Source: a virus
Lineage: Duplodnaviria; Caudoviricetes
IMG/VR virus record: IMGVR_UViG_3300033475_000013
Coordinates: 1-64,000 of that record
Reading direction: 5' to 3' (one strand)
DNA length: 64,000 nucleotides
Every line of letters starts with the position of its first letter. Position 1 is the first letter of the stretch. The notes below the pieces were generated by a model, which saw only the letters and a list, made by a program, of their open reading frames with translations, did no database searches and was not told the DNA's origin. Both the position numbers and the translations under genes were made by a program. Of this stretch, positions 3,727-20,210 are shown piece after piece.

Positions 3727-4155
3727 TTAGGGCTTGGAATATCTACAACTATTCTCACATTTTGGGTTACTATCACAATACATAAAAGGGCAACCATTTA
3801 ATGATGTTGCTTTCGTTTTATAGAATTCATCAGACTCTATTTCCTTCTTAAGCTTAAGAAAACGTTCATATTTTTCAAGCCTTCTTTTAGTCAGAAGTTC
3901 AGGGTTTAACAATTCAAGAATTTTATCCGAAGAATCATAATTACTTATGACCTGAATTATCTCTCTATTAGGCGATTCACCTATAAAAATAATCAAATCA
4001 TCTTCTGATATTCTTCTTTTTATTTTGTTAATGAATACAAAATCTTCATAAGAATTATCAGATTCTCCAAACGCACCATGACCATTTGTCAATATCCTAC
4101 TATGGATTAATCCTAAAGTTTTAGCTTCTTTTTTAGTTATTATTTGTGCTTTCAT
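3727..4155 (-). CDS. Hypothetical protein
   Basis: ORF in operon. Confidence 0.6.
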   Translation of the reverse strand: MKAQIITKKEAKTLGLIHSRILTNGHGAFGESDNSYEDFVFINKIKRRISEDDLIIFIGESPNREIIQVISNYDSSDKILELLNPELLTKRRLEKYERFLKLKKEIESDEFYKTKATSLNGCPFMYCDSNPKCENSCRYSKP

Positions 4156-4373
4156 GGTTCAACTGTTTCGATTAGTTCAAGAAATCTTTTACATTCACTG
4201 ATTTGAATATCAATTTTATTCCATTGATCATTGACTAAAGCAATTTGTTCAAGCTCAGATATTCTCTTTTCAATATCTCTTTTAAGGGATGATTTGAAGT
4301 CGTCACGACCTTGTATGTAATCAAGTCCTTTATGGAGATCTATCCAAGCTTGTTTAGCTTTCTCCTTTGTCAT
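4152..4373 (-). CDS. Hypothetical protein
   Basis: ORF with 4-nt overlap to the next gene. Confidence 0.55.
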   Translation of the reverse strand: MTKEKAKQAWIDLHKGLDYIQGRDDFKSSLKRDIEKRISELEQIALVNDQWNKIDIQISECKRFLELIETVEP

Positions 4374-4456
4374 AATAAAAATCGGGTTAACCCCACACCC
4401 GAAGGCCTAAACTGTGCGATACTTCGCTGTACTGGACTCTACGTCACATGACGCTA
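4374..4456 (-). ncRNA. 5-nt-periodic (NGY-NN)9 array A plus 3' hairpin; candidate vrRNA-like guide
   Basis: Minus strand: cGTca tGTga cGTag aGTcc aGTac aGCga aGTat cGCac aGTtt aGGCCT, then hairpin CGGGT-GTGGGGTTA-ACCCG and a T-rich tail. Confidence 0.8.
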
Positions 4457-5026
4457 TTATAATAATTTTATAGTCGTTAACTCAAATCGTCCGAACATAC
4501 CATTATTTGAAGGCCTAAATGAGCCTATCCCAACATATTTACCAGCATACTCAATGATTTGTTCGATAGTCTGAATAGTGATTGAGTCCTCGTCAATTGA
4601 AAGCGTGAATTCAGCGCTCCATTCAGACCATTTTGGACGAACAACGATTACACGAGCCTTTACATTCCTATTGACAGCAGATCGTTTATCGATGCTATCA
4701 AAATCTGGCAATAATATTTGGTCAGGCGAAACCATAAACATAGCTGCCACTATCTGTTTCATGGATTTTGAACGGCCACCAACTTTAGCTTTCACGTAAG
4801 AACCTGCTGCAATTAATGCCCCTCTAATTTGTTCAGATGGTATAAAACATTGTTCATCGGAATTTCGATAGCAATGATATTCCGCACGAACAAGATCCTC
4901 TTTTACTAACTCTGGACGTTCATGAATTGGGCCTCGTTGCTTCTCCCATTGCTCAAGCTTTTGATCATCCATACGGTGTTGCATGTATGGTGTAATTCCT
5001 TTAATTTTTACTTTGTATATTTTCAT
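4457..5026 (-). CDS. Stand-alone RAMP/Cas7-like (RRM-fold) protein, Vipr-like
   Basis: N-terminal strand YKVKIKGITPYMQH; FIPSEQIRGAL (RAMP IPxxxxxGxl motif); RPKWSEWSAEFTL; C-terminal Gly-rich loop GKYVGIGSFRPSNNGMFGRF. No other cas genes nearby. Confidence 0.75.
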   Translation of the reverse strand: MKIYKVKIKGITPYMQHRMDDQKLEQWEKQRGPIHERPELVKEDLVRAEYHCYRNSDEQCFIPSEQIRGALIAAGSYVKAKVGGRSKSMKQIVAAMFMVSPDQILLPDFDSIDKRSAVNRNVKARVIVVRPKWSEWSAEFTLSIDEDSITIQTIEQIIEYAGKYVGIGSFRPSNNGMFGRFELTTIKLL

Positions 5027-5033
5027 AAAATTG

Positions 5034-5115
5034 GATCACTTTACCCCACAATGATCAGAGGCCATTACTTGACTACACTTCGCCCCACATCGCTTGGCTT
5101 TGCAACGCATCAGCA
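5034..5115 (-). ncRNA. 5-nt-periodic (NGY-NN)9 array B plus 3' hairpin; candidate vrRNA-like guide
   Basis: Minus strand: tGCgt tGCaa aGCca aGCga tGTgg gGCga aGTgt aGTca aGTaa tGGCCT, then hairpin GATCAT-TGTGGGGTAAA-GTGATC. Confidence 0.8.
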
Positions 5116-5142
5116 TAAGTTTTTAAAGTTTAACTGAGTCTT

Positions 5143-12878: not shown

Positions 12879-13864
12879 GCTCTGATTCCAGTTATTTCAA
12901 AAAACTTATCTGAGTCAAAACCAGGCAAAGAAGTAAATACAGATTTCTTTTTATCCGTTAAATTACCCCAAAGATTTGCCCATGCTTCTTTGATTGGAAT
13001 AGTTTTTAAATAACCTTCTGTAGTTTCGTGCTTAGGATTTTTTTCTTTTTCTTCAGCACTCATTAATGAAGATGGAACCCAAATTGTAAAGTCAAGATTA
13101 GACATGATTTGGCAAGCTTCGTGATTCTCCCAATCACGCACATTTATATCAGTCAATTTATCAAATAAAATCAATTTAGGGTTTGATTCGGTGCAGAATG
13201 CGCCCGAATTCCTGTAGCCCGAATTACTGTCGCCCGAATTCCTGTCGCCCGAATTCCAGTTGCCCGAATTCCAGTTGCCCGAATTCCTGTTGCCCGAATT
13301 CCTGTCGCCCGAATTACTGTCGCCCGAATTCCAGTTGCCCGAATTCCAGTTGCCCGAATTCCTGTTGCCCGAATTACTGTTGCCCGAATTCCAGTTGCCC
13401 GAATTCCAGTTGCCCGAATTACTGTCGCCCGAATTACTGTCGCCCGAATTCCAGTTGCCCGAATTCCTGTCGCCCGAATTCCTGTTGCCCGAATTACTGT
13501 TGCCCGAATTACTGTCGCCCGAATTCCAGTTGCCCGAATTAGAATGACCGGTATTGTCCTTTCCTTCATTGGCTAAAAATAAAACTTCAGACCACTCAAT
13601 GATGCGAATGATATGAAGCTTATTAGTACAAACTTTAGAATCTTCATCGTGTGTTTGTGTTTCTCCTAACGCTTCAACTTCGCAGACAATATTTTTTGGA
13701 TCAAAATCGTAATACGAAAAACAATCAGAAGCTTTCAAACAAAAATGTAAGCCTGAACGACAAATTGTTATTGGAAGAGGCACTTCAAAAGTCTTGCCGA
13801 CTTCGTATTTCATATTGTTTTGTTTCGCGGTAAAATCTGGATTGAATACTTTATAACCTTTCAT
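12875..13864 (-). CDS. Phage pentapeptide-repeat protein ([ND][WRS]NSG repeats)
   Basis: N-terminal GYKVF...YEVGK...GLHFC domain; 23 xxNSG repeats; C-terminal domain. Confidence 0.85.
   Translation of the reverse strand: MKGYKVFNPDFTAKQNNMKYEVGKTFEVPLPITICRSGLHFCLKASDCFSYYDFDPKNIVCEVEALGETQTHDEDSKVCTNKLHIIRIIEWSEVLFLANEGKDNTGHSNSGNWNSGDSNSGNSNSGNRNSGDRNSGNWNSGDSNSGDSNSGNWNSGNWNSGNSNSGNRNSGNWNSGNWNSGDSNSGDRNSGNRNSGNWNSGNWNSGDRNSGDSNSGYRNSGAFCTESNPKLILFDKLTDINVRDWENHEACQIMSNLDFTIWVPSSLMSAEEKEKNPKHETTEGYLKTIPIKEAWANLWGNLTDKKKSVFTSLPGFDSDKFFEITGIRA
13202..13546 (-). repeat. 23 x 15-bp coding tandem repeat
   Basis: Unit (A/G)AC-(TGG/AGG/AGT)-AAT-TCG-GGC on the minus strand; 345 bp equals 23 units. 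Confidence 0.95.
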
Positions 13865-18766: not shown

Positions 18767-18842
18767 CAGGTATTGGGGAAGTCCGGTCGTTCCCGCCACA
18801 CTTGGAATGTGGAGCTCGTTGGTTCAAATCCAGCATGCCTGA
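18767..18842 (+). tRNA. tRNA-Pro(TGG)
   Basis: Acceptor CAGGTAT/ATGCCTG; anticodon arm CCACA-CTTGGAA-TGTGG; T arm GTTGG-TTCAAAT-CCAGC. Confidence 0.9.
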
Positions 18843-18849
18843 CTTTTAT

Positions 18850-18922
18850 TGCCGGATGGTGGAATTGGCAACACATCAGACTTTGATTCTGAAAATTACA
18901 GGTTCGAGACCTGTTCCGGCAA
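18850..18922 (+). tRNA. tRNA-Gln(TTG)
   Basis: Acceptor TGCCGGA/TCCGGCA; TCAGA-CTTTGAT-TCTGA; ACAGG-TTCGAGA-CCTGT. Confidence 0.9.
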
Positions 18923-18924
18923 CT

Positions 18925-18998
18925 GTGATCGTGGGCAAGTGGCTTAAGCCGCGAGATTGTGGTTCTCGTATTCGCCGGTTCGAATCCGGTCGATCACC
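18925..18998 (+). tRNA. tRNA-His(GTG)
   Basis: Acceptor GTGATCG/CGATCAC; CGAGA-TTGTGGT-TCTCG; C73 discriminator. Confidence 0.9.
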
Positions 18999-19008
18999 AA
19001 AAATTAAT

Positions 19009-19088
19009 GCCCCTGTGACATATGCAAACTGGCACAGCTGACGGTTTTAGACACCGTGTTTTTGAGAGTTCGATTCTCTCCAGGGGTA
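19009..19088 (+). tRNA. tRNA-Leu(TAG), atypical (expanded D region, short variable loop)
   Basis: Acceptor GCCCCTG/CAGGGGT; ACGGT-TTTAGAC-ACCGT; GAGAG-TTCGATT-CTCTC. Confidence 0.75.
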
Positions 19089-19092
19089 CAAT

Positions 19093-19166
19093 GGCTGCAT
19101 GGCGAAACTGGCAGACGCGTCAGACTTAAAATCTGAATTTTACGAGTTCGAATCTCGTTGCGGCTA
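19093..19166 (+). tRNA. tRNA-Leu(TAA), short variable loop
   Basis: Acceptor GGCTGCA/TGCGGCT; TCAGA-CTTAAAA-TCTGA; 5-nt variable loop; ACGAG-TTCGAAT-CTCGT. Confidence 0.85.
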
Positions 19167-20210
19167 CAAAAATTTCTCGATCAATGTTCTGAAAGCGAGT
19201 TCGGCTTGCTGTTCAACGACGGCATTTCCTGCCATGCGAAGAAGGTCTTCTCTAAAGTTGTACCCATTAATTGCATAACCCAGGCTGGATTCAAGACGAG
19301 GCTCTTCGAATTCGAATTGATTTGGTCCTTGTCCTGCTGGAAAAAGACTTGTCTGGGCAATTGATCGCACCGATTCCTCCCATCGCTTCTTTGCATTTCC
19401 ATGCCGGCCGTGTCCTTCCAGTCGAGACTGGAAGGAGTTGTCCATTGTCTGACTTGAACTGGTAATGCTGTTCCTCCTTGTTGAAATTTTGTTTTTCTGT
19501 TGGTTGAACTTGATAACGATGTCGTCCACTTTCTCACTGTCTCCGCCAGATATAACGGAACGGTGTTCTGGTTGGCATTTGACTTCCGATAATCCAAGCA
19601 CTTCTGCAAGGTCTCCTCGTCTCTTACTCTGTTCAGAGCAGTAAGTGTCGGCCACGGCAAGGATGAAGAGACGTTTTCTAAGATGTGGCGTGCCCACTTG
19701 CTCCGCAGCGAATATGTCCGCTTCAACTTTGTAACCAAGGCTTGATATTCGTTCTCTGACTTCCTGGTATCCGATATTGAGGTGGTTTGCGACGTTTTCG
19801 AAGAAACAGAGAACAGGTCTAACTGCGTCGATTCCATGTTCAAAGAAGGGGAAGAGATGTCGTGGATCGGCGACTCCGTTCTGTAGCCCGGCTTGTGAAA
19901 ATGGTTGACAAGGATATCCTCCAGTGAGGATGTGTATTTTTCGGTAAAACTGTTCGTACGGGAATGTTTTAAGATCAGTCCAGATAGGCACTGGAGCCAC
20001 CATACCTTGTTCCATTTTCGCTGCCACATTGTAGGCGGCAAAGGATTCGATTTCCACAATAGCGGCATATTGGAGAATTCTAGCTTGATACATTTTTTCT
20101 CCTTGATGTGGGTACCGTAGTGCTGCAATTCCTCGTTCCAGTCCTCGATCAAGTCCACCTTGTCCGTGGCAAAGGCTGAGTGTAGCGAGTGTTTTTTCGG
20201 GATTATCCAC
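19164..20210 (-). CDS. C5 cytosine DNA methyltransferase (alpha polypeptide)
   Basis: Motif I LCHGQGGLD; motif IV GYPCQPFS; motif VI FENV; motif VIII PHLRKRLF; motif X LRMAGNAVV. Confidence 0.92.
   Translation of the reverse strand: MDNPEKTLATLSLCHGQGGLDRGLERGIAALRYPHQGEKMYQARILQYAAIVEIESFAAYNVAAKMEQGMVAPVPIWTDLKTFPYEQFYRKIHILTGGYPCQPFSQAGLQNGVADPRHLFPFFEHGIDAVRPVLCFFENVANHLNIGYQEVRERISSLGYKVEADIFAAEQVGTPHLRKRLFILAVADTYCSEQSKRRGDLAEVLGLSEVKCQPEHRSVISGGDSEKVDDIVIKFNQQKNKISTRRNSITSSSQTMDNSFQSRLEGHGRHGNAKKRWEESVRSIAQTSLFPAGQGPNQFEFEEPRLESSLGYAINGYNFREDLLRMAGNAVVEQQAELAFRTLIEKFL

What the first reader, a model, noticed from the sequence alone, without database searches (positions are those of the whole stretch)
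4402..4456. Array A (downstream): decodable variable dinucleotides
Seen, minus strand, starting right after the stop codon: cGT-CA tGT-GA cGT-AG aGT-CC aGT-AC aGC-GA aGT-AT cGC-AC aGT-TT aGG-CCT. Plus-strand C falls at 4407, 4412 ... 4452 without exception. Inference: if each NN pairs and every third target base is skipped (as I recall for VIPR), the target is CAnGAnAGnCCnACnGAnATnACnTT or its complement. A skip every third base would tolerate wobble-position escape mutations if in frame with a gene.
Basis: partly seen in the sequence, partly recalled or inferred. Interest (0 to 1): 0.8.

Follow-up and report, generated by a model that had tools for sequence, protein, structure and literature searches.

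The report
Phage VIPR guide RNA, target unknown
The 5-base-periodic tract is a real guide-RNA gene of a VIPR system (a CRISPR-like phage silencing system described in 2026), in a relaxed nGY-NN form, but no convincing target of its decoded sequence was found.

Summary
On the minus strand, 4453-4404 holds ten 5-nt units (nG[Y]NN x9, then AGGCC), starting three bases after the stop codon of a 189-aa gene. Nine consecutive GY at period 5 occur twice in the window (this array and a twin at 5109-5060) and never in 100 shuffles.

The gene is a Vipr. Alone it hits PDB 36pp 'SUSP1 Vipr protein' (E 2.7e-10, full length), and its model matches only Cas7-family RAMPs.

All 14 related viral loci and 5 closer metagenomic relatives carry nGY-NN arrays with invariant G/Y and unrelated NN. 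The 3' tail is a hairpin with compensatory stem changes.

This is therefore a VIPR locus (Vipr plus two vrRNAs) in a complete 77.9-kb phage, probably of Bacteroidota. In this clade G1 of the published GGY is free, and the SUSP1 G1-reading Asp177 is an invariant Ser.

The decoded target stays a formal prediction. Exact 1-nt-skip scans gave 0 viral, 4 prokaryote-genome and 8 metagenome hits, all unrelated. The 8-unit hits (15, in 3 independent sites) do not exceed a shuffled control (7) and lie in phages of unrelated hosts.

It is a new member of a known kind; this scan has already logged VIPR loci in over 200 other genomes. The script machine failed, so the pooled skip-rule statistics could not be run.

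The parts
5110..5140 (-). Leader of the upstream vrRNA and left edge of the cassette; contains TTATGCTG, which recurs before the array of relative L129
   Evidence: Two other samples are 100% identical to the window from about 5140 downstream and unrelated upstream of it. The leader motif was seen by eye.
5065..5109 (-). vrRNA B guide tract: 9 units nGY-NN (NN = GT AA CA GA GG GA GT CA AA)
5027..5064 (-). vrRNA B constant 3' part: TGGCC unit, hairpin (stem 5056-5051 / 5039-5034, loop with GTGGGGTAA), then a U-run that abuts the vipr ATG
4457..5026 (-). vipr gene, 189 aa (a stand-alone RAMP of the Cas7 fold)
   Evidence: PDB 36pp SUSP1 Vipr, E 2.7e-10 over residues 1-183; phrog_4652, E 2e-26; AF2 model pLDDT 78 with only Cas7/Csm3/Cmr4 fold hits; about 693 homologs
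4456..4485 (-). sigma-70-like promoter (TTGAGT-18-TATAAT, 10/12) overlapping the vipr stop; it would start transcription near unit 1 of array A
   Evidence: a consensus match only. The region as a whole has fewer promoter-like sites than its shuffles, and a Bacteroidota host would use other promoter motifs.
4409..4453 (-). vrRNA A guide tract (the finding): 9 units nGY-NN (NN = CA GA AG CC AC GA AT AC TT)
4374..4408 (-). vrRNA A constant 3' part: AGGCC unit, hairpin (stem 4402-4397 / 4387-4382, loop GTGGGGTTA), then a U-run that abuts the ATG of the next ORF (4373)
4152..4373 (-). 73-aa ORF directly downstream; no known family and not similar to SUSP1 vap1; its membership of the system is unproven

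Best explanation
Array A is the gene for a VIPR guide RNA (vrRNA). The locus is a minimal VIPR cassette on the minus strand of a complete 77.9-kb phage genome: vrRNA B, then vipr, then vrRNA A. By analogy with the solved SUSP1 complex (inferred), one Vipr protomer binds each 5-nt unit. It sequesters the constant G and pyrimidine and presents the two variable bases, so nine dinucleotides read a DNA target with one target base skipped between them. The bound complex then represses transcription of a competing mobile element. This clade uses a relaxed anchor, nGY instead of GGY. That fits its Vipr keeping the residues that hold G2 and Y3 in SUSP1 (R138, an aromatic at W178, R179) while replacing the G1-reading Asp177 with an invariant Ser and inserting four residues in the glycine loop. 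The RNA ends in a constant GGCC unit, a short hairpin with a conserved GUGGGGUUA loop and a U-run, instead of the long pseudoknot tail of SUSP1. Shown here: the periodicity, the homology, the family-wide pattern of conserved G/Y with variable NN, and the tail covariation. Inferred: expression and processing, the one-base skip in this clade, repression, and the target, which was not found.
For: Periodicity: 2 arrays against 0 in 100 shuffles, and they are the only such tracts in the genome. Both flank one gene on its own strand. Protein: the window protein alone hits PDB 36pp 'SUSP1 Vipr protein', E 2.7e-10, residues 1-183. It hits the SUSP1 genome ORF at 33% identity, and that ORF carries 9 of the 10 residues numbered in the cryo-EM paper. 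The AF2 model matches only Cas7-family RAMPs, E about 2e-6. Family pattern: all 14 IMG/VR relatives carry nGY-NN arrays of 6-32 units next to the gene, with G/Y nearly invariant and NN unrelated between phages. Five closer relatives (75-80% identity) show the same, with the same GGCC-hairpin tail. Felix-O1-type homologs carry classical GGY arrays. Residue correlation: alignment A1 keeps H17, R138 and R179, turns W178 into F/Y, and turns D177 into Ser, which is invariant in 20 family members. Tail: 89.6% of cells paired against 72.9% in shuffles (0/500), 4 pairs changed on both sides, covariation 0.45 against 0.07 or less when slid; single-sequence folds recover the hairpin. Viral context: direct terminal repeats, 100% complete, with terminase and portal genes. 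No self-target: best 14/18 and 13/18 under the 1-nt skip, within the shuffled null, as the papers report for native guides. One relative's guide, decoded by the same rule, gives a 19/22 in-frame wobble-skip match, which is some support for the rule in this clade.
Against: No natural target was found. Full 9-unit patterns gave 0 hits in the viral collection for both guides. Guide A gave 4 unrelated hits in 596 Gb of prokaryote genomes and 8 unrelated hits in metagenomes. The 8-unit hits are at background level (15 and 29 hits against 7 for a shuffled control). They lie in HMO-2011-type marine phages and in gpJ genes of cyanophage-like or proteobacterial siphoviruses, which are implausible rivals of a Flavobacteriia-type phage. 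No vap accessory gene is recognisable, and the downstream neighbours differ among close relatives. No expression data could be obtained. The skip rule has been shown experimentally only for GGY type II systems.
Confidence: 0.85

Rival explanations
1. It is a vrRNA, but this clade reads its target by a different rule. For example, the free first base of each unit also pairs (three read bases per unit), or the number of skipped target bases is not one. In that case the reader's decoded string is wrong.
For: Position 1 of the unit is free in this clade. The G1-reading Asp is replaced and the glycine loop carries a 4-residue insertion, so the geometry could differ. No target was found under the 1-nt rule.
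Against: Position 1 is biased towards A/T and is not evenly variable (by eye). The thumb Arg (R138) and the basic residue at SUSP1 K33, which contacts the backbone next to the skipped base, are kept. The L003 guide gives an in-frame 19/22 match under the 1-nt rule, where about 0.007 is expected (my own arithmetic).
Confidence: 0.1
2. The arrays are not target-seeking guides. They would be decoy or assembly RNAs, or cis-regulatory leader and terminator elements, that merely load Vipr, for instance to autoregulate vipr or to sponge a rival's Vipr.
For: Array B lies in the vipr leader and its tail abuts the vipr start codon. Decoy vrRNAs are documented in satellites. No targets were found.
Against: NN sets differ completely between close relatives while G/Y and the tail stay fixed. 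That is the signature of diversifying specificity, and a fixed structural RNA would not show it. The cassette with both NN sets is 100% conserved in three samples.
Confidence: 0.04
3. The periodicity is chance, or a by-product of coding or of simple repeats.
For: None beyond the short length (50 nt).
Against: 0 of 100 shuffles reach it. There are two copies flanking one gene. The pattern is present in every relative examined. No ORF covers the tract, and Tandem Repeats Finder does not call it because the units are not sequence repeats.
Confidence: 0.01

Closest known systems
Type II VIPR of Escherichia phage SUSP1 and Felix-O1-like phages (Vipr + vap1 + vrRNAs; bioRxiv 10.64898/2026.04.26.720920 and .720927; PDB 36pp)
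   Same: A stand-alone RAMP of about 190 aa, detectably homologous (28-33% identity, full length). One vrRNA lies upstream of vipr and one or more downstream. Units are 5 nt with a constant G-pyrimidine and a variable dinucleotide, and arrays have 9-16 units. There is a constant structured 3' tail. The system is phage-borne and has no self-target.
   Different: The anchor is nGY instead of GGY. SUSP1 Asp177 is Ser, and there is a 4-residue glycine-loop insertion. The tail is a hairpin of about 30 nt plus a U-run, not a pseudoknot tail. No vap1 homolog is found and there is no conserved neighbour. The host range is probably Bacteroidota, not Enterobacteria. The targets are unknown.
VIPR loci with alternative 'YNNNG' repeats, mentioned in the Methods of 10.64898/2026.04.26.720920 (type classification)
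   Same: Read cyclically, nGY-NN is Y-NN-n-G, which is exactly the YNNNG pattern the authors list among alternative vrRNA consensus forms.
   Different: The paper's text does not say which type or clade has YNNNG, and the supplementary tables are not held. Identity with a published type therefore cannot be checked.
Class 1 CRISPR Cas7/Csm3 backbone filaments
   Same: The RAMP fold is shared (top fold hits are type VII Cas7, Csm3, Cmr4, Cas7-11). One protomer binds per repeat of guide, and a thumb interrupts pairing periodically.
   Different: There is no CRISPR array, no other cas genes and no adaptation module. The period is 5 nt with 2 read bases, not 6 nt with 5 read bases. The guides are genome-encoded fixed units, not acquired spacers.

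Membership tests
VIPR system | A Vipr protein: a minimal RAMP homologous to characterised Vipr | tested here: met
   phmmer against the PDB: 36pp SUSP1 Vipr, E 2.7e-10, residues 1-183. SUSP1 genome ORF, 33% identity. Cas7-family fold hits only.
VIPR system | vrRNA made of at least 4 (typically 9-16) tandem 5-nt units with a conserved GGY or related consensus and hypervariable NN | tested here: met
   9 nGY-NN units in each of two arrays. Across 19 relatives G/Y is conserved and NN is unrelated. The consensus is the relaxed YNNNG form and not GGY.
VIPR system | A constant, structured 3' tail after the repeat tract | tested here: met
   A GGCC unit plus a hairpin with a conserved loop; compensatory changes in 4 of 6 pairs; 0/500 shuffles reach the observed pairing. 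No pseudoknot was sought or seen.
VIPR system | Location in a virus, provirus or other mobile element | tested here: met
   G000 is a 77.9-kb virus record with direct terminal repeats, 100% complete. Terminase, portal, helicases and 4 tRNA genes are present.
VIPR system | An accessory vap gene next to vipr (typical, not universal) | tested here: not met
   Neither downstream ORF resembles SUSP1 vap1, and there is no Pfam, PHROG-function or NCBIfam match. Downstream neighbours differ among close relatives.
VIPR system | Guides match natural targets under the 1-nt-skip rule, mostly in frame with the skip at wobble positions | tested here: inconclusive
   No target above background for the window's guides. 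One relative's guide has a 19/22 in-frame match. Only exact matching was possible in the large collections.
VIPR system | The vrRNA is expressed, co-purifies with Vipr, and represses a matching DNA target | not testable with these tools
This needs sRNA-seq, a pull-down and a reporter assay.
VIPR type II (SUSP1 clade) | GGY anchor read by H17/D177 (G1), R138/W178 (G2) and the pyrimidine pocket with R179; pseudoknot tail; vap1 | tested here: not met
   H17, R138 and R179 are kept and W178 becomes F/Y, but D177 is Ser and G1 is free. The tail is a hairpin. There is no vap1. This is the nearest characterised relative by sequence, but the window's locus is not a member of that clade.
CRISPR-Cas class 1 | A CRISPR repeat-spacer array together with several cas genes | tested here: not met
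   No such repeats in the window, and no cas families among the neighbours.

The most novel reading that the evidence does not exclude
This large, almost wholly metagenomic clade (about 700 proteins) would be a distinct VIPR subtype. In it the anchor has shrunk from three recognised bases to two (GY) through loss of the G1-reading Asp, the tail is a plain hairpin, and no accessory protein is needed. Its guides would be aimed at genes next to rivals' VIPR cassettes, as hinted by the L003 guide, which matches its own neighbouring PD-(D/E)XK-like gene 19/22 in frame, with mismatches that may protect the phage's own copy.
Probability: 0.25. Interest if true: 0.5.

Novelty: new member of a known kind. 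Interest (0 to 1): 0.35.

Why it matters
It extends the newly described VIPR systems to what are probably Bacteroidota phages. It also offers a natural experiment on the code: a clade whose RNA has lost the first G of GGY, and whose protein has lost exactly the Asp that reads that G in the SUSP1 structure. That pairing is a directly testable structure-function prediction (swap Ser169 and Asp and ask whether the G1 requirement changes), and it points to a smaller minimal anchor for engineering. On its own the array is one more vrRNA with an unknown target, of a kind this scan has already logged in more than 200 genomes.

Tried and rejected
(1) Exact 9-unit 1-nt-skip scans. Guides A and B in viral contigs gave 0 hits. 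Guide A in genome contigs gave 4 hits, unrelated to each other and in different ORFs or on the opposite strand. Guide A in metagenome contigs gave 8 unrelated hits.

(2) 8-unit scans. Guide A gave 15 hits. Twelve are one site at the start codon of a phrog_14910 gene in HMO-2011-type Roseobacter/Puniceispirillum phages, with the skip at codon position 2. Three are in frame at one conserved motif, QDRPT(D/E)IT, in the Phage-tail_3 domain of gpJ-like tail proteins. Their nearest cultured relatives infect Prochlorococcus or Pseudomonas/Rhizobium/Ralstonia, the ninth unit never matches, and the window phage has no gpJ. I rejected these as background plus a widespread peptide motif. Guide B gave 29 hits in about 17 unrelated groups. 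A shuffled-order control for guide A gave 7 hits.

(3) Convergence of the two guides on one contig: none.

(4) Cross-targeting among 14 related phage genomes downloaded in full: none for guide A or guide B (one 3-mismatch hit, at the chance level).

(5) Relatives' long guides against all held DNA: L001 (two guides), L002, L007, L012 (two guides) and L129 gave nothing. L003 gave only the self-match. Exact viral scans of the L003 and L129 guides gave 0 hits.

(6) Self-targeting of the window's guides under skip 0-3: none beyond the arrays themselves.

(7) Rfam: no family.

(8) vap1 similarity: none.

(9) Not possible. The pooled skip-rule test with shuffled nulls could not run because the script machine was lost. 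Alternative gap sizes were not tested in the large collections because the scans were exhausted.

(10) The profile search contained SUSP1 itself, so I discount it in favour.

Full report
**1. What is in the sequence**

On the minus strand the 189-aa ORF 4457-5026 ends in TAA (4459-4457). After TAG come ten 5-nt units, CGTCA TGTGA CGTAG AGTCC AGTAC AGCGA AGTAT CGCAC AGTTT AGGCC (4453-4404). These are followed by TTCGGGT-GTGGGGTTA-ACCCGA, a T-run, and the ATG of the next ORF at 4373. 4452) are exact.

A twin array lies upstream of the same gene on the same strand (5109-5060). It has nine nGY-NN units, then TGGCC, then a hairpin and a T-run that abuts the gene's ATG at 5026. Nine consecutive GY at period 5 occur at these two places and in none of 100 shuffles. 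An 8-unit version finds nothing else in the whole 77.9-kb genome. No ORF covers the tract, and no Rfam family matches it.

**2. What the protein is**

Pfam and NCBIfam do not know the protein. It falls in phrog_4652, a family of unknown function, and has about 693 relatives, nearly all metagenomic.

VIPR (Viral Interference Programmable Repeat) was described in three 2026 preprints found. It consists of a minimal RAMP, Vipr, plus vrRNAs made of 9-16 GGY/NN pentamers and a constant structured tail. The NN pair with DNA and one target base is skipped between dinucleotides, which produces transcriptional silencing of rival mobile elements.

The window's protein alone hits PDB 36pp, 'SUSP1 Vipr protein', at E 2.7e-10 over residues 1-183. 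It also hits a SUSP1 genome ORF at 33% identity. That ORF carries 9 of the 10 residues numbered in the cryo-EM paper once the ATG at codon 6 is taken as the start, so it is the published Vipr. An AlphaFold model built without any SUSP1 or Felix sequence (pLDDT 78, pTM 0.75) matches only Cas7-family RAMPs. An earlier profile search contained SUSP1 itself and is discounted.

**3. The array is a family trait**

All 14 relatives in the viral collection (49-70% identity) carry nGY-NN arrays beside the gene. These have 6-32 units in one to eight arrays, with G and Y almost invariant and NN unrelated from phage to phage.

Five closer relatives (75-80% identity) each carry an upstream array of 7-15 units with entirely different NN. 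They share the same ending: (A/T)GTAA or similar, then AGGCC, then the hairpin. Felix-O1-type homologs carry classical GGY arrays. Three independent samples hold the window's cassette 100% identical, both NN sets included, while the sequence upstream of about 5140 is unrelated.

**4. The tail**

Eight tails were aligned. They share GGCC, a 5-6-bp stem and the loop GTGGGGT(T/A)A. The stems read TCGGGT/ACCCGA, TCCGGT/ACCGGA, TGCGGT/ACCGCA, TTCGGT/ACCGAA, GATCAT/GTGATC and GGAGG/CCTCC.

Pair counting gives 89.6% paired cells against 72.9% in shuffles (0/500 reach it). Four of six pairs change on both sides. The covariation score is 0.45 against 0.07 or less in all slid controls. Single-sequence folds recover the hairpin, while the repeat tract is not unusually structured (z -0.6 and +0.4), as expected for an RNA held by protein. 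This differs from the SUSP1 clade, whose tail includes a pseudoknot.

**5. Why nGY instead of GGY**

In SUSP1, G1 is read by H17 and D177, G2 by R138 and W178, and Y3 by a pocket that includes R179. Alignment A1 gives these equivalents in the window's clade:

| SUSP1 residue | Role in SUSP1 | Window's clade |
|---|---|---|
| H17 | reads G1 | H17, kept |
| D177 | reads G1 | Ser169, invariant in 20 members |
| R138 | holds G2 | R130, kept |
| W178 | stacks on G2 | F/Y, still aromatic |
| R179 | Y3 pocket | R171, kept |

Four residues are also inserted after the RP of the glycine loop. The RNA has lost conservation of G1 only. The match between the lost base and the lost contact is an inference from homology, but it is specific and testable.

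**6. Context**

The window is bases 1-64000 of a complete virus record with direct terminal repeats. It carries terminase, portal, DnaB-like and other helicases, and four tRNA genes. The terminase's only cultured relatives (about 25% identity) are Flavobacterium and Cellulophaga phages of 60-76 kb. A Bacteroidota host is therefore plausible but only weakly supported.

No vap-like gene is recognisable, and the downstream neighbour differs in each close relative. A sigma-70-like promoter overlaps the vipr stop. It is only a consensus match, and it may not apply in Bacteroidota.

**7. The decoded target**

Under the published rule the non-target-strand reading of guide A is CAnGAnAGnCCnACnGAnATnAC(nTT). 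Guide B is GTnAAnCAnGAnGGnGAnGTnCA(nAA).

- **Self-targets.** None were found: the best scores were 14/18 and 13/18, within the shuffled nulls.
- **Full-length exact scans.** These gave 0 viral hits for both guides. Guide A gave 4 hits in prokaryote genomes and 8 in metagenomes. All were mutually unrelated and at or below the number expected by chance (my own arithmetic).
- **Eight-unit scans.** Dropping the semi-conserved ninth unit gave 15 hits for A and 29 for B, against 7 for a shuffled-order control.
- **What the A hits are.** They collapse to three independent sites. One is a gene start in abundant HMO-2011-type marine phages of Alphaproteobacteria. The others are an in-frame, wobble-skip match to the motif QDRPT(D/E)IT in gpJ-like tail proteins of siphoviruses, whose nearest cultured relatives infect Prochlorococcus or Proteobacteria.
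- **Convergence.** Neither guide has a near-match on a contig hit by the other.

I conclude that no target has been found. The in-frame gpJ hits are best explained by a widespread peptide motif plus chance.

**8. A hint that the rule holds in the clade**

Nine guides or guide segments taken from relatives were run against about 1.3 Mb of held DNA, allowing up to 3 mismatches. Eight gave nothing.

The single vrRNA of phage L003 (Vipr 66% identical, same tail) matches 19 of 22 bases at L003 4053-4084. The match is in frame, with every skip on a wobble base. It lies within the 204-aa DUF3799/PD-(D/E)XK-like gene that starts directly after the vrRNA tail. By my own arithmetic about 0.007 such matches are expected in all the DNA searched.

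The third preprint reports guides that match relatives' VIPR loci better than their own copy. L003 may be such a case, but no better-matched variant was found.

**9. Verdict**

It is a new member of a published kind, in the relaxed YNNNG form that the founding paper lists without detail. The decoded string applies the published rule correctly but remains an unverified prediction.

This scan has already noted VIPR loci in more than 200 other genomes, and two notes on this same window describe the cassette and array B.

- The script machine was lost, so the pooled skip-rule statistics could not be run.
- The large collections allowed only exact patterns.
- Alternative gap sizes, host genomes and RNA-seq could not be examined.

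Noticed in passing
L003:4053-4084 (+), inside ORF L003:3657-4271: The only vrRNA of this related 78-kb phage, decoded with the 1-nt skip, matches 19/22 in frame (skips on wobble bases) in the DUF3799/PD-(D/E)XK-like gene that starts right after the vrRNA tail. The mismatches are in units 1, 4 and 11. Possible explanations are self-regulation, or a guide aimed at rivals' copies of this gene.
   Followed up: partly
window about 5140 (minus strand), compared with L071 and L072: Two other samples carry the cassette (array B, vipr, array A and at least 70 nt beyond) 100% identical, but the sequence upstream of about 5140 is unrelated. This is a sharp recombination boundary at the stop codon of the upstream gene, which suggests the cassette moves as a module.
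   Followed up: no
L002:2920-2939 compared with window 4448-4429: The upstream guide of relative L002 begins with NN = GA AG CC AC, the same four consecutive dinucleotides as units 2-5 of the window's guide A. Given the number of comparisons this may be chance, or it may reflect a shared target region.
   Followed up: no
window 13202-13540: A tandem repeat of a 15-nt unit (GCCCGAATTCCTGTT), 22.6 copies, 91% matches.
   Followed up: no
window 18767-19167: A cluster of four tRNA genes (Pro-TGG, Gln-TTG, His-GTG, Leu-TAA) on the plus strand.
   Followed up: no
L013:3001-3591: The vipr homolog of this 142-kb phage has an in-frame stop in the stretch matched by tblastn, although arrays flank it. 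It may be a pseudogene, a frameshift or an assembly error.
   Followed up: no
L134:451 and L135:451: The public gene call for this Vipr homolog (202 aa) starts at a GTG inside the vrRNA tail loop. The real start is probably the ATG about 13 codons downstream, so vrRNA tails can be swallowed by automated gene calls.
   Followed up: no
L009 and L014, flanks of vipr: Some relatives have six to eight short arrays joined head to tail in one 5-nt phase, separated only by a T-rich unit. This resembles the 'staggered' arrays named in the founding paper.
   Followed up: no
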